From: Fibrobacteria bacterium
Lineage (GTDB): Bacteria > Fibrobacterota > Fibrobacteria > UBA11236
DNA length: 52,661 nucleotides
Assembly: GCA_043745805.1 (NCBI GenBank)
Contig: JAYTSD010000035.1
Coordinates: 1 to 52,661 of the forward strand
Reading direction: 5' to 3'
Both the position numbers and the translations under genes were made by a program. The notes beneath the pieces were generated by a model. That model saw only the letters and a list, made by a program, of their open reading frames with translations. It was not told the origin of the DNA and did no database searches. Shown piece after piece: positions 4,654 to 20,497 of the stretch. Each line of letters opens with the position of its first letter. The stretch's first letter is position 1.

Positions 4654-4762
4654 TCTGATTAGAACGATCTCCCCGTATTATTTATTCAAAGTCGACCACA
4701 GTGGTTCGACTAAAACAAAGGGCTGCACACATGTGGAAGTAGCTCACATCTAGGAGATTATC

Positions 4763-5254: not shown

Positions 5255-5315
5255 GAGGCTCGGAACTCCTCGCTTGGCATAGAAGAAGTGACAGAAAGAA
5301 TAACTAAACGAACTA

Positions 5316-5343
5316 GAAAGGGACGGTTTGGCCGTCCCTTTTC
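5316..5343 (+). terminator. Intrinsic terminator-like hairpin
   Basis: AAAGGGACGG-tttgg-CCGTCCCTTT downstream of the NTF2-like gene. Confidence 0.7.
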
Positions 5344-5379
5344 AATAAGTATCTTTAATCCTTTTAATCAGGAACTTTT

Positions 5380-5871
5380 GTGACTCATAATGATGTTTTT
5401 CGCCGCGTTAGGTTTATTTTTAATTTCAATGATTCCACCATGATGGCCATTTTTGCTTTAGCGAATTGCAAGGTGACGCGAGAAGAAGTCAGTGATTGGT
5501 TAAAGCAAGATGATATTCCTCAATTTAAAGCCATAACCGACCATCAATTAGCCATTTTTTTAAATGGATTAATCATTAAAAAACGTGGTAAAAAAGAAGG
5601 ACCGCAACCTGAAGCCGAAACAGTTTTAAATAACAATATTGTATTTCGAAAATTAAAAATCGCTTTAGATTTTAAAGAAGAAGATATTTTAGCCACGATG
5701 AATTTGGCAGGTTTCCCCATTGGTAAACATGAACTAAGTGCTTTCTTCCGCAAAGCCGATCATAGCAATTACCGCGAGTGCCAATCCCAAATCTTGCGAA
5801 ATTTTTTGATGGGCTTACAGAAAAAGTATAGAGGTGATGTCGTTCCCGAAACCACAGAATCACCTGCTTAA
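5380..5871 (+). CDS. DUF1456 (YehS-like) family protein
   Basis: MTHNDVFRRVR, FLNGLIIKKRG, NNNIVFRKLKIAL, ELSAFFRK...YREC..QILRNFL; GTG start. Confidence 0.9.
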   Translation: MTHNDVFRRVRFIFNFNDSTMMAIFALANCKVTREEVSDWLKQDDIPQFKAITDHQLAIFLNGLIIKKRGKKEGPQPEAETVLNNNIVFRKLKIALDFKEEDILATMNLAGFPIGKHELSAFFRKADHSNYRECQSQILRNFLMGLQKKYRGDVVPETTESPA

Positions 5872-8800: not shown

Positions 8801-8979
8801 GTACGAGGAGATTGGCCTTTATACTCCGTATATATAATAACTTGTACATCGCTTAGATCCGGTAAAGCATCGATGGGTGTACGCGATAAAGCATATAGCC
8901 CCCATCCTATACCTAATAGGGTTAGCAGCATAACCAAAATTTTATTTTTAATCGATAGAGTAATGATTTTTTCCAGCAT
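5860..8979 (-). CDS. cusA: CusA/SilA-type Cu(I)/Ag(I) RND efflux permease
   Basis: DALPDLSDVQVII, LGPDASGVGWVYEY; Met triad contexts LLYMPTT, DMVETTI, DMLSTGIK; RVRPKIMT; 1039 aa. Confidence 0.92.
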   Translation of the reverse strand: MLEKIITLSIKNKILVMLLTLLGIGWGLYALSRTPIDALPDLSDVQVIIYTEYKGQSPRTLEDQVTYPLTTAMVYVPGAKVVRGYSFFGYSLVYVIFADGTDIYWARSRVLEYLNTAQKRLPAGVIPTLGPDASGVGWVYEYALVSDKRSLQELRSMQDWYLKYQLASIEGVSEVASVGGYVKQYQITVDPAKLQAYGISLNAVEMAIQNSNSDAGGEVLEMGEAEFMIRGLGYLKGLADIQKIPVNVNATTGIPVTLKEIADITVGPEMRRGIAELDGQGEVAGGVIIMRYGQNALQVIAAVRKKIAELQAGLPPDVKIIPTYDRSQLIERAVDNLQHKLIEEMIIVAIVCGIFLLHMRSALVAVFTLPTAILIAFIIMRYQGINANIMSLGGIAIAIGAMVDGAIILIENAHKHLEQENLKPLGERKDHWEIILDASKEVGPSLFWSLLVITVSFIPVFTLEAQEGRLFQPLAFTKTYSMAASAILSITIVPILMGYFIRGKILPEHKNPINRWLMHLYHPLVNTVLKYPKSVLALALLLVTVTFIPFQKLGSEFMPPLFEGDLLYMPTTLPGISIGKSKEILQQTDKIIRSFPEVEQVFGKIGRAETATDPAGLDMVETTIRLKPEKLWPKGLTVEKLIDEMDAALKFPGLTNSWTMPIKNRTDMLSTGIKTPVGIKLSGPDLDTLQKIGQQVEALMRKVPHTSSAFAERAVGGNYLDIKINRVEAARYGLNVQDIQSVIQTAMGGMSITTTVEGLERYSVNLRYSRELRDNLEDLKRVLIPTPSGQQIPLGQVAELMPSRGPMVIRTESSRPNTWVFVDMRGIDIGTYIKDAQKVISKNLQLPAGYNLVWSGEFEFIQRAQKRLMLVIPLTLFIILIILFLNTKSLIKTAIILLAIPFSLVGAVWYIYFLGYNMSLAVWVGLIALAGLDAETGVVMLLYLERAYNTAKETGAMRNLQDLKAAIDQGAVQRVRPKIMTASVILAGLVPIMWSHGTGSDVMKRIAAPMVGGVVTSVLMELAVYPVIYFLWKGRHLSR

Positions 8980-8980: not shown

Positions 8981-10444
8981 TTAATTCCTCAATTTTTTCT
9001 TCGAGGTTTCATCCATCTGCATAGTATTGGCACCGTGGGCAGATGAGTCTTCCATCATTTGAGAACTCATAGATGCAGAATCTTCTTCAGGAGTAGTTTT
9101 TAATTGTTGCACGGCTGCCTTTAAGTTACTTTCCGAATCAATTAAAAATTGTGCAGAGATCACTAAATTTTCGCCTGAATGCAATCCTGCTAATACTTGC
9201 ACATATTCGCCTGAACTTAATCCCAACTTTAATTCGCGGGGTTCAAAATAACCGCTACCCACAGAAACAATTGCGATATTGCGTTTGCCGGAACGAATAA
9301 TTGCTTGCTCAGGAATTGCTACTACATTTTTCAAAGCTGAGGAATGAATATGTACAGTAGCAAACATTTCAGGTTTAATATCCAGCGAAGGCGTATTCAT
9401 TACTTCAATGCGTATTTCTGCCGTCTTTGTTTGTTCATCAAGTACAGGAGAAATGAAAATCACTTTTCCGGATATGGATTTCCCGAGGCTAGAACTCAAT
9501 TCTATATCTGTTGTAGACCCAATTTTAATATGAGCTATATCCTGCTGATAAATATTGGCCACCACCCATAGCTTAGAGAGATCGGCAATTTTATACAGTA
9601 ACATGCCTGGTATTATGCTTTGCCCATCAACCACCATTTTTTCCAATACAATACCACTAATGGGAGAGGCTATAGATAAGGTATTATTTGCTTTACCCCT
9701 TTTTTCCAAAGCACTGATTTCACTTTGTGCTATTCCCCAATTCAATAATCTATGTTTTGCACTTTCAACTAAGTCACGGGAACCGCTGCCTAGCTTATCG
9801 TCCATACCTTGTGCATATTTTACCGCTTGTAAATATTCTTCTTGTGTAGACACTAAGTCTGGACTATATAAATCGAGTAAGGCTTGGTTTTTCATCACCT
9901 TTTGACCCGTAACATTCACATACAATTTTTCGGCATAACCCATCACGCGGGCATTCACGATAAATATTTTACTTTCTTCCACTTTCACTTTGCCATTAGC
10001 GCGAATTTCTATGGGCAAATCTCGTTGCATCACCTGTTCGGTTTTAACTCCCATATTTTGCACCGTAGTGGGATCGATACGTATTCCCTTAGCGTTAGAA
10101 TCACTTTCATACACCGCCACTAGGTCCATACCACAATCTGGAGATTTACCAGGTTTGTCGGAAGTAATCCATGGATGCATAGGATCGCGATAATAGGCAA
10201 TTCTCTTTTCTTCGTGCGAGCCTTCTTCCATGCCATGATTCTTATCCATCAGAGTCAATTTCATCCCGCAAATAGGACAGTTGCCGGGCTTGTCGGAAAT
10301 GTATTGTGGATGCATGGCGCAGTTATAATTTGCCTTCGATTTTTCCAGCATGACTTCTTGATTTTTATGTTTAGCATTCAAAATTAATATTATTCCGGCA
10401 GTAGCTAATACGATACCTAGTAATAGTCCTATCCACTTTTTCAT
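8981..10444 (-). CDS. cusB: CusB-like RND periplasmic adaptor with two N-terminal heavy-metal-binding domains
   Basis: CAMHPQ...PGNCPICGMKL, DPMHP...PGKSPDCGMDL, LYSPDLVSTQEEYL, QFLIDSESNL. Confidence 0.88.
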   Translation of the reverse strand: MKKWIGLLLGIVLATAGIILILNAKHKNQEVMLEKSKANYNCAMHPQYISDKPGNCPICGMKLTLMDKNHGMEEGSHEEKRIAYYRDPMHPWITSDKPGKSPDCGMDLVAVYESDSNAKGIRIDPTTVQNMGVKTEQVMQRDLPIEIRANGKVKVEESKIFIVNARVMGYAEKLYVNVTGQKVMKNQALLDLYSPDLVSTQEEYLQAVKYAQGMDDKLGSGSRDLVESAKHRLLNWGIAQSEISALEKRGKANNTLSIASPISGIVLEKMVVDGQSIIPGMLLYKIADLSKLWVVANIYQQDIAHIKIGSTTDIELSSSLGKSISGKVIFISPVLDEQTKTAEIRIEVMNTPSLDIKPEMFATVHIHSSALKNVVAIPEQAIIRSGKRNIAIVSVGSGYFEPRELKLGLSSGEYVQVLAGLHSGENLVISAQFLIDSESNLKAAVQQLKTTPEEDSASMSSQMMEDSSAHGANTMQMDETSKKKLRN

Positions 10445-11769
10445 TTATATTCTCCGGTTAATAATTTCTGCTCTATTTCACTTCGGCTTATACCGATGAT
10501 TTGTTCCAAGTCCGCTAGACTACTGAAAAAATTCATCGCATCCATTTCTGTATTCATCTGCGCCATCGACAATATGCGATAAGCATCCAGTAACATTAAG
10601 AATTCCGTTTTACCGCTTTGATAACTCGCTAAAGTGGCATCCAAAGTTTGCTGGGCTTGGGGTAACAAAATATTTTTCGAAAGCTGCACCCGATTTCCAT
10701 TGACTTTTACTTTAAGAAAGGCGCTTTGTGCCTGCGCCATAGTCATGTTTTGCATATTGGTATATTCTGCCTGTGCCTGATTAATACTTGCCACGCTTTG
10801 CGTATAAGCTGCCTTATATTTAGGTGCCGACCACAAGGCCAATGGTATATTCATGCTCACCATTATCGACCAAAAATCCGTCGGAGAACCTTGCATATTT
10901 TTATAAGCACCTCGCACCATAATGTCGGGATAATAATCTCGCAAGGCCATAGTCTTTTCGAATTGACGCATTTCTATTGCAGCCTTCATTCCTTGTAATT
11001 CTGGTTGAAATGTTTTCAGTAGGGCTACAATTTGCTCCCAAGTCCAATCAATAGGAACAGGTTTAAGTGCATGTGTTTTAGCTATAGCATCGTTGAGATT
11101 ACGATTGAGCAAAGCATTGAGCATGCCAGACATGGCATCGCGAGTTTGTACCAAAGTAACACTATCGTTTTTTAAAGTGGTGTATTCAGCTTGGGCGCGT
11201 AAAATATCAGCTTGCTTGCCCACCCCCACCTCATATTGTTTACGTGTGGCGGCGACAAAGTGGCTCAATAAAATTTGATTTTGCTGATTGATTTCCAAAC
11301 GTCTATCCAAAAGATAGATCTCTACCCAATTCATTTTCACTTCACGGATAATTTTTTGTTTTAAGACTTCTAAATCAGCTTCACTCATTCGCGCATGCGA
11401 ATGCTCAGCATCAATGCGCGCAGAATTTTTTCCTGGAAAAGGAAATTTTTGTTGCAAGGAATAGTCGATTTCTTGAGAATGATAGGCTGGATTAGGAAAA
11501 GAAGATACAGGGGTTTGATAAAACTCTACGCCAATTTCTGGATCTTCCAAATACCAGGTATGCCCTGGAGACGCATGAATTGCTTGTACCTGATACGCTG
11601 CCGCCTTAAGACCAGGATTGTTTTTCACCGCTTCCGCGATAAATTGTGGAAGTGAATCCATGGCAGTGAAATCTTGCAGTATATATGTTTGTATACGTTC
11701 TTCCGAAAACGCGGGGATTACGGCAAACCCAGCAAATAAAACGATAGGCCATTTAAAAAAGTTGAGCAT
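10441..11769 (-). CDS. TolC-family outer membrane factor of the Cus-like operon
   Basis: Signal peptide; QKFPFPGK, YEVG...DILRAQ, YQSGKTEFLMLLDA; 4-bp overlap with the adaptor gene. Confidence 0.88.
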   Translation of the reverse strand: MLNFFKWPIVLFAGFAVIPAFSEERIQTYILQDFTAMDSLPQFIAEAVKNNPGLKAAAYQVQAIHASPGHTWYLEDPEIGVEFYQTPVSSFPNPAYHSQEIDYSLQQKFPFPGKNSARIDAEHSHARMSEADLEVLKQKIIREVKMNWVEIYLLDRRLEINQQNQILLSHFVAATRKQYEVGVGKQADILRAQAEYTTLKNDSVTLVQTRDAMSGMLNALLNRNLNDAIAKTHALKPVPIDWTWEQIVALLKTFQPELQGMKAAIEMRQFEKTMALRDYYPDIMVRGAYKNMQGSPTDFWSIMVSMNIPLALWSAPKYKAAYTQSVASINQAQAEYTNMQNMTMAQAQSAFLKVKVNGNRVQLSKNILLPQAQQTLDATLASYQSGKTEFLMLLDAYRILSMAQMNTEMDAMNFFSSLADLEQIIGISRSEIEQKLLTGEYK

Positions 11770-11889
11770 AATAGCTGTCCTTAATTTTTTTTATGAATAA
11801 AATATTTGGAGGGGATATGCTTAGGTTACGGATACCCTAAAGTAACCGCTTCCGTTCCTATCGAAGAGACAAGCTCTCGAAAGAAAATT

Positions 11890-12303
11890 TTAAATCAGAA
11901 GCTGGAGGCTAGTAAGGTAAAGCGGAGGATTTGCAGATATAAGTTTTCTGAATTCGGGTTGGAATGTAAACTTATCAGTAACCGGCAAAGGTAAAGTAGC
12001 GATCACCATCAATGGCATATCAGGTAAAGTAATTTGCTCTGAAACGATTTGCGGTAAACGTATATTCGCGTCTTGAACACAACAGCCTTTTCCCATAGCA
12101 GAGGGAATAGACGAAGATTGCTTTGCACAACAAGAGTGATTTTCAGAAAAATTATTTGAAGATTTTGAAAAAAGCTTTTGAGAAATAAAGTGAACCATTT
12201 TTTTATTCACCGTAACACAACCAAAAGCTTGGTTTCCAAAAAAAACTAACAAGAGGAATAGGCATAAACTTCTTCTAAATTGATGATTTCTTATTGCCTG
12301 CAT
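11890..12303 (-). CDS. Small exported Cys-rich protein ending in PPLYL motif; putative leader ORF of the Cus-like operon
   Basis: Hydrophobic N-terminus, HSCC and GCC, C-terminus SANPPLYLTSLQLLI; a TATAAT lies shortly upstream. Confidence 0.7.
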   Translation of the reverse strand: MQAIRNHQFRRSLCLFLLLVFFGNQAFGCVTVNKKMVHFISQKLFSKSSNNFSENHSCCAKQSSSIPSAMGKGCCVQDANIRLPQIVSEQITLPDMPLMVIATLPLPVTDKFTFQPEFRKLISANPPLYLTSLQLLI

Positions 12304-12413
12304 AATGTCATATTACAACATTATACGAATTCTGACCATAGCTACTTCCTAACTAGGAAATATTATCAATTACCCCCCCCTATTTATGGGTTTTCAATTG
12401 ATTTTGAAAATAT

Positions 12414-13025
12414 TTAAGGTTTAATTTCTTTCACAAATTCACCGCAATCAGGCATAGCTTTTCCTTGATAAGGATTCGCTTTAACTTTTCCTCTTTGCAA
12501 CCAATCAGCACCTTTATTGTCCTTGGCCATGGGGCAATGAAATAAATTTGTCGAATCGACTCCCATCATGCCAATTTTTTCAATCATATTCACTAGCAAA
12601 GGAGTGAATTCGGCAAAATGATTCCGCATGACTGCTATATTTTCGGAAGCGGCCATCGGATGTAGGACTTTCATAAAACCCATTGAAATAGAATCCCAAC
12701 CAGCTTTTGCACTACTATCCAAAGCATCTTCGGGAAGGGTATGTAGAATGCCATGCATTAAAGAAAACTCTTCTGCAGCTTTAGGAAAGTCATCTGCGGC
12801 TAAAGATTTTTGAACTTTTAAATAGCCTGAAACAATATTTCCAATGCCTATTTTAAATGAATCAGGCACAGTATAAGTACGCGATGAAGGGATCGCTTCC
12901 AGTTTTTGCTTTGCTAAAGCGGGTTGTGGAAGTTCAGATTTTTCTTTGCATGATATTGTTACTAATATAATTGCTAATATTAATATGAAAATAACTTTGG
13001 GGAAGTTTAAAACTTTGCTTAGCAT
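12414..13025 (-). CDS. DUF3347-domain lipoprotein (metal-efflux associated)
   Basis: Lipobox VTISC; YLKVQKSLAADD, FHCPMAKDNKGADWLQ, NPYQGKAMPDCG; start at ATG 13025 after AAGGA. Confidence 0.85.
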   Translation of the reverse strand: MLSKVLNFPKVIFILILAIILVTISCKEKSELPQPALAKQKLEAIPSSRTYTVPDSFKIGIGNIVSGYLKVQKSLAADDFPKAAEEFSLMHGILHTLPEDALDSSAKAGWDSISMGFMKVLHPMAASENIAVMRNHFAEFTPLLVNMIEKIGMMGVDSTNLFHCPMAKDNKGADWLQRGKVKANPYQGKAMPDCGEFVKEIKP

Positions 13026-13051
13026 ATTTATTTTCCTTTTACCGTTTACCA

Positions 13052-13510
13052 CTATTTAATTTTGAATTGTTGCTTTAATAGATCGGCTTGAACTTTTAAT
13101 TTCTTAGCCCATTTTTTAGTTTCATCCAATTTCTTTTCATCCGCAGCATCATGCATGGAATCAGTAAGCTTGGCCACATTTTTAATATAACCTTGCACAC
13201 GTTTTTTCTTTGCGGCATCCAAGGATGAATCTCTATCTAAGCCAACAACAGCCTTATTCATGGCTTCTGCGAATTGATGAATACGATTTAACTTTCCCTT
13301 AAGTAATTCATTATTTACACTATCTAAAGACGCTTCCAAGGCATTGATCGCCATGGTGGAACCTCCAACATCTATGGCCTTTGTAGATGCTGAACTTAAA
13401 TGATGCTCCTTATGTGAATCACTCGATTTACTCTCATGCGCCCAAGCCGTTCCAAATATTAAAGTGCCGCTTAAAAGTGGAATTAAAATTTTGGATTTAA
13501 TGGTTTTCAT
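13052..13510 (-). CDS. Exported His-rich helical protein of unknown function
   Basis: Signal peptide ending AWA, then HESKSSDSHKEHH; helical body with IHQFAE and MHDAAD; overlaps the end of the upstream RND gene. Confidence 0.7.
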   Translation of the reverse strand: MKTIKSKILIPLLSGTLIFGTAWAHESKSSDSHKEHHLSSASTKAIDVGGSTMAINALEASLDSVNNELLKGKLNRIHQFAEAMNKAVVGLDRDSSLDAAKKKRVQGYIKNVAKLTDSMHDAADEKKLDETKKWAKKLKVQADLLKQQFKIK

Positions 13511-16500
13511 GATTTTCTCCTTGAGTGATGGTTATTGATTGATCTTTTTTTTGTGCTAAAATTTTATCTACAGCCTTGCGCCCGAAATTTTTAAAAAGTG
13601 TTGGAACAAGAGCCACATTCATTAGTGTGGAACTAATAAGTCCTCCAAAAATAACTACGGCCACCGGATAAAGAATTTCTTTACCTGGCTCGGAAGGCGA
13701 AAGAATTAAAGGGATAAGCGCGAGTGCAGCCGTTAAAGCCGTCATTAAAACTGGAACTAATCTTTCTTGAGCTCCACGAATAATCATGGCCTCATTCCAT
13801 TGCTCACCTTCTTCGCGCAATAAATGCAAGTAATGGGAAAACATCATTATGCCATTGCGTGAAGATATTCCGCATAGTGTAACAAATCCCACTAAGGAAC
13901 CGATGGAAAAAGTTTTAGTGGTTAACCATATTGCAGCTACTGCACCAATTAAGGAAAAAGGAATATTGAGCATAATCAAGCCTGCTAAAGTAGCTGAGCG
14001 AAAATGCATGAACAAAGCCAAAAACATTCCGATTAAAGAAAACCCACCGAGTATAGTAATCATTTTTGAAGCTTGTTTTTGACTTTCGAATTGTCCGCCA
14101 TACTCCACGAAATAACCCGAGGGTAAATGAATTTCCTCATTAATTTTTTTCTGGATTTCTTGCACTACCGATCCCAAATCCCGTCCACTGGTATTGCATT
14201 GAATAACTATGCGTCGGCGCACATTCTCACGCAAAATTTGATTAGGGCCCATAGCGGGCAAAATCGTAGCCACTATATTTAAAGGAATTTGTTCTCCACT
14301 CGGAAGAACAATAAGTAATTCACCCATTCTCTCTATACTGCTGCGACTCGCGGAATCTAATAAAACCACCAAGGCAAAACGTTTTTGATCTTCAAGCACT
14401 TCAGAAACTTTTTCGCCTCCCAAGGCTGTTTGAATAAGAGTCGTAAGATCTCCAGCTTGCAAGCCATAACGTTGTAATTCTTCTCTATTCAGTTTTATCG
14501 TAACTTGTGGAACCAGTACTTGTTTTTCAACAGAAAGATCCACTACTCCGCGAATCGATTGTAATTCTTTTTCAATCTCTTCAGCCTTGTTGCGTAAAAT
14601 ATTTAAATCATCTCCAAATAATTTAATGGCCACTTGCGCACGAATGCCGGATAAAAGATGATCGATGCGATGAGAAATAGGTTGCCCAATATTAACGGAG
14701 ACACCTGGAATTTGATCTAGTTTTTGGCGAATATCTCCCAGAATATTTTGTTGTTTTCTTTTACTGGGTTTTACGTCTACATCTATTTCCGTAGAATGCA
14801 CGCCTTCAGCATGATCATCTTCTTCTGCGCGACCGGTTCGCCTTCCGGTGGAAATCACTTCAGGTACTTGCAAAATTAACTTTTCGGCAATAGTCCCAAT
14901 ACGATCCGATTCAGGCAAGGATGTTCCTGGCGGCGATAAAATATTGATTGTGGCCGTACCTTCATTAAAGGGAGGGAGAAATTCTTTTCCCAAAAAGGGA
15001 AAGGAAATCACCGCTATGGCCAGTAACATAAAGGCTATGGCTAAAGCTAGCCAAGGTTTGGAAAGTGTGGGTTTAAGGAAGATTTTTATATTCCATTTTT
15101 TTAGAAATCTCACTAATGGCCCATCTGCTTTATGTAAAAACTTGGTTTTGGGAAGCAAATAAGCACAAAGCGCAGGGGTAACTGTTAGGGATACCACCAT
15201 CGAAGCCAATATGGAAATGATATAGGAAATACCCAGCGGCGCAAATATTTTTCCTTCTATGCCTCCCAATGAAAACAACGGAATAAAAACCAGTACTACA
15301 ATCAACGTGGCAAAAACAATGGAGTTACGAACCTCCGAAGAGGCTTTATAAATCACCGTCACAAAAGGTTCGGGAATAGGTTTTTGCTGATTTTCCTTAA
15401 GGCGGCGAAACACATTTTCCACATCGACAATAGCATCATCTACCAATTCCCCAATGGCTACCGCCATTCCACCCAAGGTCATGGTATTAATAGAGAGTCC
15501 ATAAAACTTAAATACCAAAGCGGTCACCAACATCGACAAGGGAATAGCGGTAAGCGTGATGAAAGTTGTTCGGAAATTAAGTAAGAATAAAAAGAGAATC
15601 AGTATGACCAGAATACTTCCGTCACGCAAAGCATGTACCACATTGTTGATGGCGGTTTGAATAAAATTGGCTTGCCGAAAAAGTTTTGCATTGATCTGTA
15701 TCTCTTTGGGTAAACTTTTTTGTAATTCCGCTAAAGCGGCTTCTATAGATTTTGTCAATTCAACCGTACTTGCTCCCGGTTGCTTTTTCACGCTCATAAT
15801 AACTGCGGACTTGGCATTAGCGCCAGCCGTACCGCGCTTGGGCGCTGCACCATAACGAATATCGGCAACTTGTTCTAAAGTAATAGACTGCCCGTCTTTA
15901 AAAGCGACAACCGTGGTTTTAAGATCTTCAATATTTTCCAGTCTTCCAATATTGCGCACCACCGATTCGGTATAACCCTGAATTAAAAATCCTCCGGTAG
16001 AATTGCTATTTGATTTTTTAACGGCTTCTTCTACTTGTTGCAGGGTAACATTATTTTGCTTGAGTTTATCAGGAGAAACGAGAATATGGTATTGCTTAGC
16101 ATCACCTCCCATAGAAATCACTTGTGACACACCTGGAATACTGAGTAGTCTTGGCTTTATTGTCCAATCGGCAAGTGTGCGCAAATCCATAGCTGAGGAA
16201 GAATCACCACTCACACTGATAAGCATGATTTCTCCCATGATTGAAGAAATCGGACCCATTTGCGGATTCACGCCCGAAGGAAGATTTTCGCGCAAACCTT
16301 GAATTTTTTCCGCTACAATTTGTCTGTCGATATAAATATCAGTGTTCCAATCAAATTCCACAAATAAAATGCCGAGGCCCGGTGAAGAAACCGATCGCAC
16401 TCTTTCAACCCCCGTAGCCCCATTCATAGCAGTTTCCAGAGGATAGGTTATCAAGGCTTCAATTTCTTCAGGCGATAATCCTTCCCCTTCAGTAAAAATG

Positions 16501-16643
16501 GTTACCGTTGGTCGATTTAAATCAGGAAACACATCAATAGGAAGTTTTCGAATAGTATAGGTCCCATATAACGTTAATAAAACGGCACAAGCTATAATCA
16601 AGAGCCGATTACGTAAGGAAAATAAAATAATGGAATTAAGCAT
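13497..16643 (-). CDS. CzcA/CusA-family heavy-metal RND permease (divalent-cation type likely)
   Basis: DVFPDLNRPTV, GELVDDAIVDVEN, GRAEEDDHAEGVH, ERLVPVLMTA; 1048 aa; lacks the CusA Met triad contexts. Confidence 0.9.
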   Translation of the reverse strand: MLNSIILFSLRNRLLIIACAVLLTLYGTYTIRKLPIDVFPDLNRPTVTIFTEGEGLSPEEIEALITYPLETAMNGATGVERVRSVSSPGLGILFVEFDWNTDIYIDRQIVAEKIQGLRENLPSGVNPQMGPISSIMGEIMLISVSGDSSSAMDLRTLADWTIKPRLLSIPGVSQVISMGGDAKQYHILVSPDKLKQNNVTLQQVEEAVKKSNSNSTGGFLIQGYTESVVRNIGRLENIEDLKTTVVAFKDGQSITLEQVADIRYGAAPKRGTAGANAKSAVIMSVKKQPGASTVELTKSIEAALAELQKSLPKEIQINAKLFRQANFIQTAINNVVHALRDGSILVILILFLFLLNFRTTFITLTAIPLSMLVTALVFKFYGLSINTMTLGGMAVAIGELVDDAIVDVENVFRRLKENQQKPIPEPFVTVIYKASSEVRNSIVFATLIVVLVFIPLFSLGGIEGKIFAPLGISYIISILASMVVSLTVTPALCAYLLPKTKFLHKADGPLVRFLKKWNIKIFLKPTLSKPWLALAIAFMLLAIAVISFPFLGKEFLPPFNEGTATINILSPPGTSLPESDRIGTIAEKLILQVPEVISTGRRTGRAEEDDHAEGVHSTEIDVDVKPSKRKQQNILGDIRQKLDQIPGVSVNIGQPISHRIDHLLSGIRAQVAIKLFGDDLNILRNKAEEIEKELQSIRGVVDLSVEKQVLVPQVTIKLNREELQRYGLQAGDLTTLIQTALGGEKVSEVLEDQKRFALVVLLDSASRSSIERMGELLIVLPSGEQIPLNIVATILPAMGPNQILRENVRRRIVIQCNTSGRDLGSVVQEIQKKINEEIHLPSGYFVEYGGQFESQKQASKMITILGGFSLIGMFLALFMHFRSATLAGLIMLNIPFSLIGAVAAIWLTTKTFSIGSLVGFVTLCGISSRNGIMMFSHYLHLLREEGEQWNEAMIIRGAQERLVPVLMTALTAALALIPLILSPSEPGKEILYPVAVVIFGGLISSTLMNVALVPTLFKNFGRKAVDKILAQKKDQSITITQGENHENH

Positions 16644-16649
16644 GCTTTC

Positions 16650-17612
16650 TCATTTCGCTTTGCTATCCGTTTTTAAGTTTTTGTCATTATGGGCAGAATT
16701 TACTTTTGCCTTGGCGAATTGCAATTGATAATTACCTTGGGTAACCACAATGTCACCTGGTGATAAACCCTCCACTGCCTCAATCCATTTGTCATTTTCA
16801 ATACCAGTAACAATAGAGGTACGGGTATAATTATTGCCGTCTTCTACAAAAACAAACCGTTCGCCACCCGAGCCTAATACGGCCATCTTGGGCACTACAA
16901 TACTTTCATCTTCTTTATCGGTTAAAAAGAAAACATTAACTGTCATATTTATTTTCAATTGCTCATTATTATTCTTGGCCCTTAACCATACATCTACCGT
17001 GCGGCTTTGGGTATTGACTTCGGTTCCAACAATCTCCACCTTACTGGCTAAATCCTTATTTTTTAATCCCGGTGAATAAATCCTAGCCGACATACCTTTT
17101 TTTATTTTTCCAATTTGCGCTTCATACACTTGGGCTACCGCATAGACTTCACCATAGTCTGCTATTTCAAGCAGGGAAGTCCCTATTTCCACCGCATCGC
17201 CTTTAATCACCTTTAGCTTCACTACTTTACCATTGCGAGGTGCAGCCACGGCGATGCGTATGGGTGTTTCACTTAATTGACTCGATTCTATAAGGAGTAA
17301 GGTTTCACCTTTTTTCTTCGTTTGCCCAAGCGAAATCATAATATCTACTACTCGCCCAGCAATTTTACTGGAAACATTTTCCCGCGTTCCCGCAATGGCT
17401 TGAATAGTACCCGAGGATTTAATGGTTTTTTCCATCGCCTGAACCGTAACCTCAGCGGTTTGGATTTCCAAATTTTGTTTTGCCTCAGGGGAAAGTACCA
17501 AGGGTCCATTCTGTGTGGCTTGTTCCGAAGGCGCATCATCATGCCCTGCATGGGCAAATATTTTTTCACCGCATACTATCAAACTCACTATTAATATCAT
17601 TAATAATTTCAT
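16650..17612 (-). CDS. RND periplasmic adaptor (CzcB-like)
   Basis: Signal peptide followed by AHAGHDD; lipoyl-like halves; GLSPGDIVVTQG. Start may be 17612 or 17633. Confidence 0.85.
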   Translation of the reverse strand: MKLLMILIVSLIVCGEKIFAHAGHDDAPSEQATQNGPLVLSPEAKQNLEIQTAEVTVQAMEKTIKSSGTIQAIAGTRENVSSKIAGRVVDIMISLGQTKKKGETLLLIESSQLSETPIRIAVAAPRNGKVVKLKVIKGDAVEIGTSLLEIADYGEVYAVAQVYEAQIGKIKKGMSARIYSPGLKNKDLASKVEIVGTEVNTQSRTVDVWLRAKNNNEQLKINMTVNVFFLTDKEDESIVVPKMAVLGSGGERFVFVEDGNNYTRTSIVTGIENDKWIEAVEGLSPGDIVVTQGNYQLQFAKAKVNSAHNDKNLKTDSKAK

Positions 17613-17626
17613 TATTTTCTCAAAGC

Positions 17627-18841
17627 CTACCATGATTTACCTCCGACCATTCTACCTAATAAATTCCATTGTGCATAAAATTCTGCTTGCACACTCAGCG
17701 CATCCATAGCTTGTGTCAGAGCGTCCTCTTGCACTTTCGACAAATCGAATATTCCTAATAATCCTTGACGAAAACCTTTTTCCGAAAGGCTCATTTGTTT
17801 TTGACTGAAGGCCAAAATATTGCCTTGATAATTTTGGATTTTATTTTTTAAATAGCTTAATTGGGAATGCGCCTGTATTAATTCTAATTGCAATTTTCTA
17901 GCTAAAGCCTTTTTTTGTAATTCGGTGCTACGCCATTGGCCATTCGATTTAGCAATGCCCGCTTGATTATGATTAAATAAAGTTAAAGGAAATTCTATAG
18001 CCCCTCCTATCAAATTTGCGCCTTCCGTTTCTCTTTCATAACCTAAGGATAAATTGAATGAAGGCTTGCCTATATTTTTTTCTAAATCCACTTCAGCTTT
18101 TTTAAGCTGAATGCCTTGCTCCAAGATTAATAAATCAGGATTCGCCTCCATCATCCAAATGTTGAGAGAATCTAAAGCAGGAATTTCCGGTAAGGAATCG
18201 ATTGTTTGTAAAGCCATTGAATCCAGCGCTTGTTTATCGCCTATGAGGTAAGCCAGTTTATTTTCTATAACCGTCATTGCATATTGAATTTCCATTTCAC
18301 TTTGTTTTGCTTTGGCTAAATTAAGTTGTGCTTGTGTCTCTTCCACCTGAGAAATCTTTCCCTCGGCCATTTTTGCCATGGTAATTTGGGAAAGCTTTTC
18401 CCAACGAATGGTGACTTCTTTTTGCATTGCTTTTTTGCGAAATAAAATTTGCCACGTAAAATAATGGCAGCGAATTTCTTGCTTGAGATTTAATTCTCTA
18501 GTCTTTTGTATGGCCTGTTTCGAAAATATATTGGCTTTAAAAACTTGCATTTTTCCATTCACCAAGCCTGGATGAAATTCTTGTGATAGCTTTATCCCCA
18601 TTTTAGGTTTATCCGGATTTTCAATATTATGCATCACGTCTAAGCTTAATTGCGGATTAGTCCATAACTTTGCGGTAACGGTATCTTGAACCGCCATCTC
18701 TGTTTCTTGTTGGGATAACTGTAAATCCAAATTGTTTTTCAGCCCCCTATTTATAAGGCTATCTAGATTTATGCTAGCTGAATAAAGTCCAGAAAAGCTC
18801 AGTAAAATGGTTGTTGCGCTAAAGCGCCAAATCGTGTACAT
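17627..18841 (-). CDS. TolC-family outer membrane factor (CzcC-like)
   Basis: Signal peptide; NPQL, EGKISQVE, PLTLFNHNQAGI, GFRQGLLGIFDL; GAAGGAG SD. Confidence 0.85.
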   Translation of the reverse strand: MYTIWRFSATTILLSFSGLYSASINLDSLINRGLKNNLDLQLSQQETEMAVQDTVTAKLWTNPQLSLDVMHNIENPDKPKMGIKLSQEFHPGLVNGKMQVFKANIFSKQAIQKTRELNLKQEIRCHYFTWQILFRKKAMQKEVTIRWEKLSQITMAKMAEGKISQVEETQAQLNLAKAKQSEMEIQYAMTVIENKLAYLIGDKQALDSMALQTIDSLPEIPALDSLNIWMMEANPDLLILEQGIQLKKAEVDLEKNIGKPSFNLSLGYERETEGANLIGGAIEFPLTLFNHNQAGIAKSNGQWRSTELQKKALARKLQLELIQAHSQLSYLKNKIQNYQGNILAFSQKQMSLSEKGFRQGLLGIFDLSKVQEDALTQAMDALSVQAEFYAQWNLLGRMVGGKSW

Positions 18842-19022
18842 GCTTCAGTTACTCCTTCAAGTAAGCCAAGAAAAATCAAAAAGATGGAGGGGAATAATGA
18901 GTTACGAATGACGCTTGATTTACTATAAGCTTTAATCGAAGCTTAATTAGCAATCAATGAATCAATCTTTACATCAACCCAAAGAAGCTGAAAGTCAACT
19001 TCCTTAAATTGATTCTGGGGAT

Positions 19023-19511
19023 TTAAACTAGAAGATGCAGTGTTGTTAAATAAAGCGGTGGGCTTGAACGATTTTGAGGAATAAATTTTTCGGTATGAAA
19101 AGGAAGCGCCTGAGTTATTTCCTTATCAAAGATAAGCGTAATTGCAATAACAGGGACAAACCATGCTTCATTGGCCACCATAGCTTTTTTGGTGATTGAA
19201 TTTTCCGAAATACACATGCCCTCTTGAGCAAGAACCGTTTGATTTTTTTCATTCAAGGAAATTTTTTTCGAATGCTGCTTTTCATGATGACCATGACAAT
19301 GCGGATGATGTTCCACTTCTTCCGAAACACTTGCGACCTGCTCATGAGAACCAAAACCTAAGCCATGCAAAGCCTGAGAGATGCCTTCCGCAAAGGCTTC
19401 ATTAATACGACAGCAGTTGAAAAATTCACCGGTGAGCAATAAAAGGGAGGAAAGTAAAGCCATAACAGGGAGTAAGCGACTTTTTTTAATGCCTGAAATT
19501 ACGCTAGTCAT
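19023..19511 (-). CDS. Small exported His/Cys-rich protein ending in PPLYL motif; putative leader ORF of the Czc-like operon
   Basis: Hydrophobic N-terminus, NCC, HHPHCHGHHEKQH, C-terminus RSSPPLYLTTLHLLV. Confidence 0.7.
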   Translation of the reverse strand: MTSVISGIKKSRLLPVMALLSSLLLLTGEFFNCCRINEAFAEGISQALHGLGFGSHEQVASVSEEVEHHPHCHGHHEKQHSKKISLNEKNQTVLAQEGMCISENSITKKAMVANEAWFVPVIAITLIFDKEITQALPFHTEKFIPQNRSSPPLYLTTLHLLV

Positions 19512-19560: not shown

Positions 19561-19695
19561 ATTTTACTACATAACCCTTATTTTCGAAATACTCTTAATA
19601 AGTATCGGGCGAATAATAAGAAAACCTAAACCCTCCCACTTTACTAACTTATTACTCAAATTCTCAGTGAGCAGAAATCCAAAATAGGAGTGCGT

Positions 19696-20493
19696 ATGAA
19701 AAAGAACCTTTACCTTATTGCCTTAACCATCATCGGCATCATAACCCTAACCAGTTTAACCCAAGCGGGTGTGTATATGAATAGCACCCAAGGCTCGCTC
19801 ACGGAAAAGGACAAAAGCACAGAACAAAAAATCTATCTCGAAAAAGATCGTGTGCGCATAGATATGCATGCCGAAAAAAAGGATATGTCATTTATTTATC
19901 GCAAGGACAAAGAAACTTTTTGGATGATAAATACCGCGGACAAATCCTATTTCGAAATGACTAAAAAGGATTTTGAAAAAATGCATGCCCAAATGGATGG
20001 GGCTATGGAAAAGATGAAAGAGCAATTAAAAAATTTACCGCCAGAGCAAAAAGAAATGATGGAGAAAATGCTCAAGGGAAAAATGCCCGGACAAGCTGCC
20101 CAGGTGGAATACAAGAAAATTGGATCCGGTGAAAAACTGAATACTTGGATCTGCGATAAATTCGAAGGTGTTTCGGAAAAAGAAAAAAGTAGCGAGGCTT
20201 GGACTACTGATTTTGCAAAACTCAATTTAGAAGAATCTGATTTTCAAGTATTCAAAGATATTGGACAATTTGTAGGGAAATTTAATAAGGGCCAAGAAGC
20301 ATTCTTTTCCTTCTCTGGAGATAGACATGGTCTTACGGGAATTCCGGTAAAAGTAATTTTCTTTAAAGAGGGTAAGCCCAGTCAACAAACGGAAATTAAA
20401 GAAATCAAAAAACAGGATTTAGCAGCAAATCTCTTCGAATTACCCTTGGGACTAAAAAAGAAATCATCTCCCGGAGCTATTCCAGGACAATAA
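19696..20493 (+). CDS. Exported DUF4412-like protein
   Basis: Signal peptide; RVRIDM, INTADKSYFEM, KIGSGEKLNTWICDKF, FELPLG; GGAG SD before ATG 19696. Confidence 0.7.
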   Translation: MKKNLYLIALTIIGIITLTSLTQAGVYMNSTQGSLTEKDKSTEQKIYLEKDRVRIDMHAEKKDMSFIYRKDKETFWMINTADKSYFEMTKKDFEKMHAQMDGAMEKMKEQLKNLPPEQKEMMEKMLKGKMPGQAAQVEYKKIGSGEKLNTWICDKFEGVSEKEKSSEAWTTDFAKLNLEESDFQVFKDIGQFVGKFNKGQEAFFSFSGDRHGLTGIPVKVIFFKEGKPSQQTEIKEIKKQDLAANLFELPLGLKKKSSPGAIPGQ

Positions 20494-20497
20494 GTCT

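What the first reader, a model, noticed from the sequence alone, without database searches (positions are those of the whole stretch)
11890..19511. Paralogous PPLYL-tailed leader ORFs head both metal-efflux operons: candidate metal-sensing translation-arrest system
Seen: 11890-12303 ends NPPLYLTSLQLLI-stop and 19023-19511 ends SPPLYLTTLHLLV-stop, with PP at the same distance from the stop. Both have an N-terminal export-type hydrophobic segment and a CC pair, are otherwise dissimilar, and lie directly upstream of the TolC gene of their operon. The leader of the Cu(I)-type pump is Cys-rich (HSCC, GCC); the leader of the divalent-type pump is His-rich (HHPHCHGHHEKQH), matching the expected metal. 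Known: Rhodobacter CutF and Bordetella CruR (DUF2946) are exported metal-motif uORFs whose Pro-containing C-termini control downstream expression in cis. Inference: a non-RAPP variant in which secretion- or metal-dependent stalling gates RND expression, with swappable sensor segments.
Basis: partly seen in the sequence, partly recalled or inferred. Interest (0 to 1): 0.85.

Follow-up and report, generated by a model that had tools for sequence, protein, structure and literature searches.

The report
Metal-sensing leader genes before efflux pumps
Two related small genes, each just ahead of a heavy-metal efflux pump operon in an uncultured sediment Fibrobacteria bacterium, encode exported, mostly unfolded Cys/His proteins with an invariant Pro-Pro-plus-ten-residue tail; they look like a new lineage-specific version of the known copper-sensing, ribosome-stalling leader peptides CutF and CruR, but nothing about stalling has been tested.

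Summary
Window 11890-12303(-) (137 aa) and 19023-19511(-) (162 aa) end in PPLYLTSLQLLI and PPLYLTTLHLLV. Each lies 120 or 181 nt upstream of a TolC-family gene that heads an RND metal-efflux operon.

They are full-length paralogues (hhalign 99.2%, E 2.5e-19), not only tail look-alikes. They belong to an unannotated family found in one GTDB family of Fibrobacterota (14 of 201 genomes searched). No DUF2946, CopL or DUF6769 model matches.

- Shared anatomy: export-type N-terminus, three Cys(/His) sites, 49-52 residues from the last Cys to PP, and ten residues after PP.
- The Cus-type subfamily has Cys-only sites. The other subfamily has Cys plus His.
- AlphaFold2 finds no folded domain.
- A TolC/OEP gene follows in 24 of 29 determinable places.
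- B-type spacers carry a conserved, covarying two-hairpin RNA that starts 8-11 nt after the stop and matches no Rfam family.
- In the window's B copy the last five codons pair with the tolC start region.

Best reading (0.5): a cis-acting metal-sensing leader of the CutF/CruR kind. That concept is already published, including CutF-like genes before OEP/RND operons (PMC9973294). So this is a new variant of a known kind. A trans-acting CzcI-like protein remains a serious rival.

The parts
19023..19511 (-). ORF-B, 162 aa, B-type leader/sensor gene (stop codon at 19023-19025)
   Evidence: Full-length homologues at 32-48% identity in relatives. 48 cluster representatives at E<=1e-3 among 1.84e9.
19428..19511 (-). 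ORF-B residues 1-28: basic n-region (KKSR) plus hydrophobic segment LLPVMALLSSLLLL; export signal or N-in anchor
   Evidence: Sequence. AlphaFold2 helix 13-32 with block pLDDT 83-88. No signal-peptide predictor was available.
19410..19415 (-). ORF-B Cys site 1 (C33 C34 of FNCCRINE)
   Evidence: C33 invariant and C34 >=90% conserved in 45 sequences.
19272..19310 (-). ORF-B Cys/His site 2 (HHPHCHGHHEKQH, residues 68-80; C72)
   Evidence: C72 >=90% conserved; consensus HxxCHGH.
19203..19217 (-). ORF-B Cys site 3 (MCISE, C100), 50 residues before PP
   Evidence: C100 invariant. Spacing is 50 in 30 of 43 and 49-51 in 37 of 43 family proteins with the PP tail motif.
19026..19079 (-). ORF-B conserved C-terminal module PQNRSSPPLYLTTLHLLV (residues 145-162); PP codons at 19056-19061
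   Evidence: P145, P151, P152, L155 and L161 are >=90% conserved. Exactly 10 residues follow PP in 42 of 43. The codons vary synonymously, including TCN/AGY serine switches.
18919..19016 (-). Conserved two-hairpin RNA (P1, then P2 with an inner hairpin) in the ORF-B to tolC spacer
   Evidence: Covariance model R2, 40.9 bits. Covariation counts. MFE z-score -5.43, 0 of 200 shuffles as stable. No Rfam match.
19026..19039 (-). 5' strand of a predicted long-range helix: the last five codons of ORF-B
   Evidence: MFE and centroid pair these bases with 18837-18850. Expected pairs 12.7 against 3.3 in shuffles, 0 of 30 as high.
18837..18850 (-). 3' strand of that helix: positions -9 to +5 of the tolC-like gene, start codon included
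17627..18841 (-). TolC-family outer-membrane factor of operon B
   Evidence: Pfam OEP, E 1.2e-31.
16650..17633 (-). Membrane-fusion (adaptor) protein of operon B
   Evidence: Pfam HlyD_D23, E 6.8e-29.
13497..16643 (-). HME-type RND pump of operon B; metal specificity undetermined
   Evidence: TIGR00914, 836 bits. CusA 490 bits and ZneA 482 bits.
13052..13510 (-). 152-aa His-rich exported protein, conserved at this position in relatives
   Evidence: No Pfam family.
12414..13052 (-). DUF3347 protein, last gene of operon B
   Evidence: Pfam DUF3347, E 4e-8. Same position in L022.
11890..12303 (-). ORF-A, 137 aa, A-type leader/sensor gene. Cys sites at C29 (12217-12219), HSCC 56-59 (12127-12138) and GCC 73-75 (12079-12087). 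PP 126-127 (11923-11928). Tail to 11893.
   Evidence: Orthologues upstream of Cus-type operons. HxCC, CC and PP are invariant in 10 A-type sequences. Spacing 50, tail 10.
11770..11889 (-). 120-nt ORF-A to tolC spacer; begins AAUUUUC and has a hairpin 6 nt after the stop
   Evidence: Not significantly structured overall (z -1.13). No match to the B-type RNA model.
10441..11769 (-). TolC-family outer-membrane factor of operon A
   Evidence: Pfam OEP, E 6.5e-39.
8981..10444 (-). CusB-like adaptor of operon A
   Evidence: NF007303 CusB, E 6.4e-58, below its cut-off; TIGR01730 above its cut-off.
5860..8979 (-). CusA orthologue (Cu(I)/Ag(I)-type RND pump) of operon A
   Evidence: 1250 bits to E. coli CusA structures. 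The aligned LLYMP, xMVETT and DMLSTG segments keep their Met residues. TIGR00914, 1210 bits.

Best explanation
ORF-A and ORF-B are paralogues of an unannotated gene family confined, in the genomes searched, to one family of Fibrobacterota. Most likely they are cis-acting, metal-sensing leader ORFs of the CutF/CruR kind.

Proposed mechanism (all steps inferred):
1. The nascent chain is exported co-translationally.
2. Its three Cys(/His) sites reach the periplasm. The sites are Cys-only in the subfamily before the CusCBA-type operon and Cys plus His in the subfamily before the other HME-RND operon.
3. The last site sits 49-52 residues before an invariant Pro-Pro. That is about the length needed to span the ribosome tunnel plus the translocon when PP is at the peptidyl-transferase centre.
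4. Metal binding changes how long the ribosome dwells on the last dozen codons or on the stop codon.
5. Ribosome occupancy there remodels the structured 120-181-nt spacer. This sets translation initiation at tolC and/or Rho-dependent read-through into tolC-MFP-RND.

Shown here: gene reality, paralogy, motif and spacing conservation, lack of a predicted fold, synteny, nucleotide-level conservation around the stop, and a conserved covarying RNA in B-type spacers.

Inferred only: export, metal binding, stalling, the stall site, cis action, and the direction of regulation.
For: Homology and annotation
- Full-length homology of the two subfamilies: hhalign 99.2%, E 2.5e-19.
- All named members are 'hypothetical protein' with no Pfam domain.

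Conserved protein anatomy
- Invariant or >=90% conserved: C33, C34, C72, C100, P145, P151, P152, L155, L161.
- A-type invariant: H56, C58, C59, C74, C75, P126, P127.
- Ruler from the last Cys to PP: 50 residues in 30 of 43 and 49-51 in 37 of 43 proteins with the PP tail motif. The other 6 have an extra later Cys. A-type: 49-52 in 10 of 10.
- The other motif spacings vary more: 34-60, and 27-35 where no extra Cys intervenes.
- Tail after PP is 10 residues in 42 of 43 and 10 of 10.
- Tail codons vary synonymously, including TCN/AGY serine switches, so the peptide is under selection.
- No fold predicted: mean pLDDT 63.6 and 58.2, with only the N-terminal helices confident. CruR is described the same way (PMC9426467, passages).

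Synteny
- Of 30 places in 14 genomes, a TolC/OEP gene is next downstream on the same strand in 24.
- The other six: contig end 1, transposase-like HTH 2, another family member 1, cytochrome c 1, fragment 1.
- Three of 4 further loci also have a TolC-like ORF next (BLASTP to the window's TolC proteins; L023 only 22.7% identity, E 3e-8, Pfam not run).
- Spacers measure 120-181 nt once tolC starts are set by their SD.

B-type spacer RNA
- Model R1 found the untrained locus L031 at 36.1 bits.
- R2 hit 16 of 16 B-type loci and no A-type locus.
- 77.2% of cells are paired against 65.0+-1.7 in shuffles (0 of 500) and at most 51.2% when partners are slid.
- 42 cells have changes on both sides, against 18.9 in shuffles (0 of 500).
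- 6 of 7 P2 pairs are compensatory.
- P1 starts 8-11 nt after the stop in the 14 loci whose MFE shows it.

Nucleotide-level constraint at the stop
- The penultimate Leu codon is CTC in 11 of 11 GC-rich B-type loci. CTC makes up 21% of 1127 Leu codons in neighbouring genes.
- A post-stop RAUCCC-like motif is frequent in both subfamilies.

Window B copy
- The last five codons pair with positions -9 to +5 of tolC in both the MFE and the centroid structure. z = -2.92, 0 of 200 shuffles as stable.
- 12.7 expected pairs against 3.3 in shuffles, 0 of 30 as high.

Context
- EF-P and Rho genes are present.
- No two-component or MerR-type regulator was seen among the eight flanking ORFs scanned (150-5871 and 19690-21091); window ORFs beyond 21091 were not scanned against Pfam.

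Precedent
- CutF, CruR and CutF-like proteins before OEP/RND genes (PMC9973294 sections 10-12; PMC9426467 passages; bioRxiv 10.1101/2025.02.05.636593 introduction and discussion).
Against: - No experiment and no RNA data. No RNA run holds this DNA.
- The ten residues after PP are among the best conserved and have a fixed length. They are not yet made when a ribosome sits at PP. They therefore point to a function in the finished protein, or to a stall at the last codons or the stop rather than at PP.
- The proteins are long for leaders (137-190 aa). They carry a conserved helix after the hydrophobic segment.
- From recall, SPP-L is not among the strongest diprolyl stall contexts.
- Masking of the tolC ribosome-binding site is not general. 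Pairing between the ORF end and the tolC start region exceeds shuffles (at most 5 of 30 as high) in only 5 of 13 B-type and 0 of 4 A-type loci. The ORF end ranks in the top 10 duplex partners in 6 of 17 loci. Blocking the ORF end raises predicted SD accessibility only modestly and unevenly.
- A-type spacers lack the B-type RNA. The window's A spacer is not significantly structured (z -1.13).
- No sequence model of the known families matches.
Confidence: 0.5

Rival explanations
1. The ORFs encode trans-acting small periplasmic or membrane-anchored metal-binding proteins: a CzcI-like regulator, a metallochaperone or a pump accessory. On this reading the PP plus ten-residue tail is a docking strand or a C-terminal degradation or recognition signal of the finished protein. 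The spacer RNA would then act independently, as an attenuator, a processing site or a stability element.
For: - The tail after PP is conserved to the very last residue and has a fixed length.
- The proteins are 137-190 aa and have a conserved helix after the hydrophobic segment.
- Three conserved Cys/His sites could form one metal site in a mature protein.
- CzcI, encoded before czcCBA, is grouped with CutF-like proteins but lacks a Pro motif and is described as a metal-sensing regulator (PMC9973294, discussion passage).
- RBS masking is not general.
Against: - No fold is predicted, even with 45 aligned sequences.
- The 50-residue stretch before PP keeps its length but not its sequence. That suits a ruler better than a domain.
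- There is nucleotide-level constraint across the stop codon, and a hairpin lies at a fixed short distance from it.
- The position directly before tolC is kept in two paralogous operon types.
Confidence: 0.3
2. The conserved P1-P2 RNA of B-type spacers is itself the regulator: a ligand- or protein-binding element, or a Rho or intrinsic attenuator. The upstream ORF would matter only because its terminating ribosome sits next to the RNA.
For: - Covariation and a model hit in 16 of 16 B-type loci.
- C exceeds G in all 17 spacers examined, C/G 1.03-1.50.
- A Rho gene is present.
- No Rfam family matches, so the element is undescribed.
Against: - A-type loci share the ORF family, the tail and the tolC position but not this RNA.
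- No terminator-like site was found in either spacer.
- This rival does not explain the protein-level conservation of the Cys/His sites, the ruler or the tail.
Confidence: 0.12
3. Chance ORFs or annotation artefacts with a coincidentally similar tail.
For: Neither ORF has a Pfam or NCBIfam match. A word-based search with ORF-A alone found only itself.
Against: - 48 cluster representatives and 30 genomic places, with frames open in nearly all.
- Synonymous codon variation under a conserved peptide.
- hhalign E 2.5e-19 between the subfamilies.
Confidence: 0.01

Closest known systems
CutF of Rhodobacter capsulatus (cutFOG; CutF-like proteins sensu Ozturk et al. 2023, PMC9973294; bioRxiv 10.1101/2025.02.05.636593)
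   Same: - Small exported protein heading a metal-homeostasis operon, with a Cys metal site in the exported part and a Pro repeat near the C-terminus.
- An RNA structure lies between the leader and the next gene. In the window's B copy the tolC start region is predicted to be paired.
- The published survey names the OEP genes of RND metal pumps as the commonest downstream neighbour of CutF-like genes.
   Different: - No detectable sequence relation.
- Three Cys/His sites instead of one CXXXC.
- PP rather than PPP, followed by ten conserved hydrophobic residues.
- ORF-B and most B-type members exceed the survey's 150-aa limit.
- Spacers of 120-181 nt, whereas most in the survey are under 100 nt.
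- Phylum Fibrobacterota is not mentioned in the sections read; the supplement lists were not available.
CruR (Bp2923) of Bordetella pertussis, DUF2946 / PF11162 (Roy et al. 2022, PMC9426467)
   Same: - Exported and poorly structured, first in its operon, with a long spacer (162 nt there).
- Conserved spacing between the metal motif and the Pro motif (45 +-2 there, 49-52 here).
- Nonpolar C-terminal residues.
- Rho-dependent control is a possible mode here too: the spacers are C-rich and a Rho gene is present.
   Different: - No PF11162 match, no CXXC, no RAPP.
- The Pro motif is 10 residues from the end, not 3.
- CruR controls an importer that copper turns down. Here the targets are efflux pumps, which presumably must be turned on.
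CzcI of Cupriavidus metallidurans and CopL of Xanthomonas/Stenotrophomonas (named members of the CutF-like network in PMC9973294)
   Same: Small Cys/His proteins encoded directly before czcCBA or copAB. CopL acts only in cis according to that paper.
   Different: - CopL_fam (NF033807) matched only 2 of 45 family members, at E 0.01 and below its cut-off. It matched neither window ORF.
- CzcI lacks the Pro motif according to that paper. No CzcI model was available to test.
SecM and TnaC (classical arrest peptides; recalled, and as summarised in the introduction of bioRxiv 10.1101/2025.02.05.636593)
   Same: - A conserved C-terminal stretch of about 20 residues.
- Important residues lie 10-12 positions before the arrest point. 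If the stall were at the stop codon, PP would occupy that position.
- Control of the next gene by unmasking its RBS (SecM) or by blocking Rho next to the stop codon (TnaC).
   Different: - No sequence similarity.
- The ligand would be periplasmic metal rather than export force or tryptophan.
- The stall site here is unknown.

Membership tests
DUF2946 / CruR family (PF11162) | Match to the PF11162 profile | tested here: not met
   No match for either ORF at E<=1. None for the 45 aligned family members at E<=10. None in the whole genome at E<=1.
DUF2946 / CruR family (PF11162) | Conserved CXXC metal motif (PMC9426467) | tested here: not met
   The conserved Cys sites are NCC, HxxCHGH and CLSE in B-type, and (S)CC, HSCC and GCC in A-type. 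There is no CxxC.
DUF2946 / CruR family (PF11162) | C-terminal RAPP motif three residues before the end (PMC9426467) | tested here: not met
   The motif here is SSPP followed by 10 residues. No RAPP is present.
DUF2946 / CruR family (PF11162) | Spacing between the metal motif and the Pro motif conserved to within 1-2 residues | tested here: met
   49-51 in 37 of 43 (the other 6 have an extra later Cys) and 49-52 in 10 of 10. The value is 50, not 45.
DUF2946 / CruR family (PF11162) | N-terminal export signal or N-in/C-out anchor | tested here: inconclusive
   A basic n-region plus a 14-17-residue hydrophobic helix is present. No signal-peptide predictor was available.
DUF2946 / CruR family (PF11162) | First gene of a metal-homeostasis operon with a long spacer | tested here: met
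   OEP gene next downstream in 24 of 29 determinable places. Spacers of 120-181 nt. Co-transcription was not tested.
DUF2946 / CruR family (PF11162) | Cis-acting translation arrest that responds to metal | not testable with these tools
   Needs toeprinting, Ribo-seq or reporter genetics. No RNA run holds this DNA.
CutF-like proteins, operational definition of Ozturk et al. 2023 (PMC9973294, section 10) | Shorter than 150 aa | tested here: inconclusive
   ORF-A is 137 aa and passes. ORF-B is 162 aa and fails, as do most B-type members at 152-232 aa.
CutF-like proteins, operational definition of Ozturk et al. 2023 (PMC9973294, section 10) | PP within the last 15 residues | tested here: met
   PP occupies positions 11-12 from the end in both ORFs and in 42 of 43 relatives.
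CutF-like proteins, operational definition of Ozturk et al. 2023 (PMC9973294, section 10) | [quoted passage not shown] | tested here: met
   120 and 181 nt.
CutF-like proteins, operational definition of Ozturk et al. 2023 (PMC9973294, section 10) | Reachable by iterative sequence search from CutF (membership of one of the 29 network clusters) | not tested
   The cluster lists are in supplements that were not available.
CopL family (NF033807) | Match to the NCBIfam profile above its cut-off | tested here: not met
   2 of 45 members at E 0.01, below the cut-off. Neither window ORF matched. None in the genome at E<=10.
DUF6769 (PF20558), suggested by the protein-atlas feature search | Match to the Pfam profile | tested here: not met
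   The atlas lead scored 0.93, with only 33% of that cluster carrying the family. No match in the genome at E<=10 or among the 45 members.
   No such model appeared among NCBIfam matches at E<=10 for the two ORFs or the 45 members. I did not verify that the model is in this release.

The most novel reading that the evidence does not exclude
The invariant 21-residue C-terminus (RPRPQNKSSPP-LYLTTLRILV-stop in B-type) is a new kind of arrest module. It would hold the ribosome on the last codons or the stop codon, not at PP. PP would then sit 11-12 residues back, at the tunnel constriction.

The parked ribosome would abut a conserved, undescribed P1-P2 RNA placed 8-11 nt after the stop. Release would be governed across the membrane by metal binding to a three-site Cys/His sensor a fixed 50 residues upstream of PP.

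Two paralogous versions, Cys-only and Cys plus His, would give one cell separate Cu(I)/Ag(I) and divalent-metal switches without any dedicated transcription factor.
Probability: 0.15. Interest if true: 0.8.

Novelty: new variant of a known kind. Interest (0 to 1): 0.45.

Why it matters
If these ORFs act as proposed, three things would follow.

- Nascent-chain, transmembrane metal sensing (CutF/CruR) would extend to a phylum where it has not been described, and to RND efflux pumps. For those pumps it has been predicted from gene neighbourhoods but, in the papers I read, not demonstrated.
- The family is a clean natural experiment. Two paralogues in one genome share the same tail and the same 50-residue ruler but have different ligand sets (Cys-only against Cys plus His) in front of two different pump types.
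- The fixed ten-residue tail and the conserved RNA next to the stop codon differ from RAPP and PPP leaders. They could show another way in which a peptide and an mRNA structure cooperate at the end of a leader ORF.

If instead the proteins act in trans, they are an undescribed family of small metal-binding accessories of Fibrobacteria efflux systems.

Tried and rejected
- A word-based homologue search with ORF-A alone found only itself. Orthologues appeared only through whole-genome and profile searches.
- The search for related loci with the 45-sequence alignment failed for lack of a conserved stretch. A 12-sequence subset worked.
- The metagenome scan added only 2 loci.
- Rfam gave no match in the window's region or in 12 related loci.
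- The sigma-70 promoter and terminator scans of both spacers were uninformative.
- General masking of the tolC ribosome-binding site by the ORF end or spacer was tested three ways: constrained folding, duplex ranking and pair probabilities against shuffles. It is supported for the window's B copy and a few relatives. It is not supported as a family-wide feature and is absent in A-type loci.
- I inspected two further ideas by eye: that the 3' arm of P1 or a downstream CCCUCC motif masks the SD. The CCCUCC motif lies 38-49 nt before the start in only about 6 of 17 loci. P1's 3' arm is the best duplex partner in only one locus. I dropped both.
- Read-through of the stop into the spacer was rejected. 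All three stop codons are used, and the in-frame continuation is not conserved (read by eye).
- A lipoprotein signal was rejected. F-N-C does not fit a lipobox, and six residues separate the hydrophobic core from the Cys (the lipobox rule is recalled).
- Sequencing runs: no RNA holder is listed. Four DNA runs from one sediment study hold the stretch.
- Complex prediction, structure-library searches and a second atlas search were not used. The models are low-confidence.

Full report
**1. Observation**

The two ORFs are real and lie where stated. Window 11890-12303(-) encodes 137 aa ending NPPLYLTSLQLLI. Window 19023-19511(-) encodes 162 aa ending SPPLYLTTLHLLV. In both, PP is followed by exactly ten residues.

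On the minus strand the gene order is:
- ORF-B;
- a TolC-family gene (Pfam OEP);
- an adaptor gene;
- an HME-type RND pump;
- a 152-aa His-rich protein;
- a DUF3347 protein;
- ORF-A;
- a second TolC-family gene;
- a CusB-like adaptor;
- a CusA-like pump.

The spacers from ORF to tolC are 181 and 120 nt. Pairwise BLASTP aligns only the last 70 residues (E 1e-5). Neither ORF matches any Pfam or NCBIfam model.

**2. The family**

HMMER over 1.84 billion cluster representatives found 48 relatives of ORF-B at E<=1e-3. A profile search of the 5.8-billion-protein set found 29. All have no Pfam domain. All are called 'hypothetical protein' where named, and Fibrobacteria where an organism is given.

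Nine loci in species-representative genomes are all MAGs labelled Fibrobacteria or Fibrobacterota, apart from one labelled only 'uncultured bacterium'.

In 201 genomes sampled across the phylum, 14 have the family. All 14 are in the window's own GTDB family (13 of 21 others, plus the window's genome). None of 180 genomes in other families has it. Those 180 are 'not found in those searched', not shown absent. Genomes carry one to four copies.

There are two subfamilies.
- B-type (ORF-B) has the consensus: signal segment, TG(E/Q)xFNCCRINE, HxxCHGH, CLSE, RPRPQNKSSPP[LVI]YL[LT]TLR[IL]LV-stop.
- A-type (ORF-A and orthologues) has: signal segment, FSCCLVN, HSCC, GCCIQDAN, SSPPLYLTxLRLLI-stop.

The two profiles align over 141 columns at 99.2% probability, E 2.5e-19. 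They are therefore paralogues over their whole length. A-type genes precede CusC/CusB/CusA-like operons and B-type genes precede the other RND operon type.

RND_A is a clear CusA orthologue: 1250 bits to the E. coli CusA structures, with the Met residues kept in the aligned LLYMP, MVETT and DMLSTG segments. That these form the Cu(I) triad is recalled, not tested here. RND_B scores the same against CusA (490 bits) and ZneA (482 bits), so its metal is not established. The His-rich adaptor N-terminus, the His-rich 152-aa protein and the His-rich leader hint at a borderline divalent metal, but only hint.

**3. Anatomy that bears on mechanism**

(a) *N-terminus.* A basic stretch and a 14-17-residue hydrophobic segment are modelled as a confident helix. 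No signal-peptide predictor was available.

(b) *Three conserved Cys sites.* C33, C72 and C100 in ORF-B numbering are invariant or >=90% conserved. A-type has two Cys at each site and no conserved His beyond one. B-type adds three to four His at site 2.

(c) *A ruler.* From the Cys of site 3 to the first Pro of PP there are 50 residues in 30 of 43 and 49-51 in 37 of 43 proteins with the PP tail motif; the other six have an extra, later Cys. A-type shows 49-52 in 10 of 10. ORF-A and ORF-B both have exactly 50. The other inter-motif distances vary more: 34-60, and 27-35 where no extra Cys intervenes. The sequence of the 50-residue stretch is poorly conserved.

(d) *The tail.* Ten residues follow PP in 42 of 43 and in 10 of 10.

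(e) *No fold.* AlphaFold2 gives mean pLDDT 63.6 with 45 aligned sequences and 58.2 with 10. Only the N-terminal helices are confident.

(f) *Selection acts on the peptide.* Pro, Ser (including TCN/AGY switches), Thr and Arg codons of the tail vary freely.

(g) *There is also nucleotide-level constraint at the very end.* The penultimate Leu codon is CTC in 11 of 11 GC-rich B-type loci. CTC makes up only 21% of 1127 Leu codons in neighbouring genes. These relatives are not independent. The stop is followed by a RAUCCC-like motif in many loci of both subfamilies, though the window's own A copy has AAUUUUC.

**4. Synteny**

Of the 30 places reported in 14 genomes:
- 24 have a TolC/OEP-family gene as the next gene downstream on the same strand. 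This was shown by BLASTP to the window's TolC proteins or by Pfam OEP.
- 1 runs off its contig.
- 2 are followed by a transposase-like HTH gene.
- 1 is followed by another family member.
- 1 is followed by a cytochrome c gene.
- 1 is a truncated fragment.

Two of the 24 lie in the unpublished genome G021. Of four further loci from other collections, three have a TolC-like ORF next and one has DUF3347 next.

In several relatives a heavy-metal P-type ATPase (E1-E2 ATPase plus HMBD) lies just upstream on the same strand. In the window the upstream neighbour of ORF-B is divergent.

After setting tolC starts by their Shine-Dalgarno sequences, the spacers measure 120-181 nt in 17 loci. No two-component or MerR-type regulator was seen among the eight flanking ORFs scanned, at 150-5871 and 19690-21091; window ORFs beyond 21091 were not scanned against Pfam.

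**5. The spacer RNA**

In B-type loci a hairpin P1 (GGRAGCC-loop-GGCUUCC) starts 8-11 nt after the stop in the 14 loci whose MFE shows it. It is followed by P2, an outer stem enclosing an inner hairpin.

- A covariance model built from 15 loci found the untrained locus L031 at 36.1 bits.
- The refined model hit 16 of 16 B-type loci and none of the A-type loci or the third paralogue.
- On the model-fitted alignment, 77.2% of cells pair, against 65.0+-1.7 in shuffles (0 of 500) and at most 51.2% with slid partners.
- 42 cells show changes on both sides, against 18.9+-3.6 (0 of 500).
- Six of seven P2 pairs have compensatory changes.

That alignment leans toward the structure. However, RNAalifold had already found P1 and P2 with compensatory pairs on the plain MAFFT alignment.

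The window's copy is at 18919-19016(-), with z -5.43. No Rfam family matches. A-type spacers also begin with a hairpin a few bases after the stop, but they share no common model. The window's A spacer is not significantly structured (z -1.13). C exceeds G in all 17 spacers.

**6. Does the ORF end mask the tolC start?**

In the window's B copy it does, in prediction. The last five codons (19026-19039) pair with positions -9 to +5 of tolC (18837-18850) in both the MFE and the centroid structure. The whole spacer has z -2.92. The expected number of such pairs is 12.7 against 3.3 in shuffles, with 0 of 30 as high.

Across the family the picture is mixed:
- Only 5 of 13 B-type loci, and 0 of 4 A-type loci, exceed shuffles at 5 of 30 or fewer.
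- Duplex ranking places the ORF end in the top ten partners in 6 of 17 loci.
- Blocking the ORF end raises predicted SD accessibility only modestly.

RBS unmasking is therefore plausible for this locus but is not a shown family trait. Rho-dependent attenuation, as in CruR, is an equally open alternative. Genes for both Rho and EF-P are present.

**7. Comparison with what is known**

Roy et al. 2022 (PMC9426467; abstract and passages read) define DUF2946/CruR by these features:
- CXXC and RAPP motifs, with RAPP three residues from the end;
- a 45-residue spacing conserved to within 1-2 residues;
- an export signal in over 95% of members;
- first position in the operon;
- long spacers.

Ozturk et al. 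2023 (PMC9973294; sections 10-12 and passages read) define CutF-like proteins operationally:
- under 150 aa;
- PP within the last 15 residues;
- a signal peptide;
- the next gene on the same strand.

They list 5,334 such proteins, mainly from Pseudomonadota and Bacteroidota. They state that OEP genes of RND systems are the commonest downstream neighbour. CzcI, CopL, SilD and CusD fall in that network.

The 2025 preprint (10.1101/2025.02.05.636593; abstract, introduction and discussion read) shows Cu-induced stalling of CutF at PPP, which melts a stem-loop over the cutO RBS.

The present family works like these on every architectural criterion. It fails the sequence criteria of DUF2946: no PF11162 match, no CXXC and no RAPP. 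It matches neither CopL_fam nor DUF6769.

I found no paper that mentions CutF-like proteins together with Fibrobacter (0 papers). A search on DUF2946, arrest peptide, efflux and uORF since 2022 listed nothing on this family (listing and abstract starts only). The supplementary cluster lists of PMC9973294 were not available, so A-type members may already sit in that network.

Earlier notes of this scan report analogous unannotated leader families in other phyla. I did not test those.

**8. Verdict**

The most likely reading (0.5) is a lineage-specific, sequence-novel variant of the known CutF/CruR class of metal-sensing leader ORFs, present here as a Cys-only and a Cys/His paralogue before two pump types.

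The main unexplained feature is the invariant ten-residue tail after PP. The conserved bases across the stop and the hairpin just beyond it add to this puzzle. Together they suggest that the critical ribosome position may be the last codons or the stop rather than PP. Alternatively, the finished protein may have a function of its own (rival, 0.3).

Novelty: new variant of a known kind. Interest: 0.45.

Noticed in passing
L049 1501-1971 and L058 1498-2013 (genomes G006, G023); fragments at L060 1492-1755 and L058 1-249: There is a third paralogue type, ending PRPQNKSSPPI[FP]LATIRIQV. In two genomes it lies next to a transposase-like HTH gene (Pfam HTH_32/33/23). An ORF-B-like piece follows that gene: in G006 an 87-aa truncated copy (L060 1492-1755) ahead of the intact B-type gene (L007), in G023 the B-type gene itself, cut by the locus edge at L058 1-249. 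This suggests duplication by a mobile element.
   Followed up: partly
L059 1498-1953(-) (genome G019): A divergent member with a single Pro (…DTPLYLLRLQLLI) sits upstream of a cytochrome c gene (Pfam Cytochrom_C) rather than a TolC gene. L053 1495-1971 holds another single-Pro copy (…STTPLYLIQLRLLI), 700 nt upstream of a normal B-type gene.
   Followed up: partly
L020 4467-6917, L021 4545-6950, L026 4367-6883, L027 4719-6881, L028 2-2302: In relatives a heavy-metal P-type ATPase lies directly upstream of the B-type leader on the same strand; Pfam (E1-E2 ATPase, HMBD) was run only on L020, and the other four were recognised by BLASTP to the CusB-like N-terminus and a shared C-terminal sequence. 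The window lacks it: ORF-B faces a divergent DUF4412 gene at 19690-20493.
   Followed up: partly
window 13052-13510(-) and 12414-13052(-): A 152-aa His-rich exported protein with no Pfam family, and a DUF3347 protein, close operon B. The 152-aa protein keeps that position in four relatives (L020-L022, L026), the DUF3347 protein only in L022. The DUF3347 protein weakly matches the Leptospira LIC13259/LIC11441 family (E 1.2e-4, below its cut-off).
   Followed up: partly
window 8981-10444(-): The CusB-like adaptor carries two N-terminal Cys/Met/His motifs (…CAMHP…CPICGM… and …PMHP…SPDCGM…). They resemble the heavy-metal-binding domain found at the N-terminus of the relatives' P-type ATPases, which gave BLASTP hits between the two.
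   Followed up: no
window 23716-24210(+): The ribosomal protein S16-like ORF has a long Ala/Lys/Glu-rich C-terminal extension of about 70 residues.
   Followed up: no
L031 1771-2079(-) (= L024/L055, genome G023) and L056 (genome G019): Two family copies were reported with an in-frame TAA. The G023 copy is cut to 102 aa yet still precedes TolC and adaptor genes and still carries the P1-P2 RNA (51.9 bits).
   Followed up: partly
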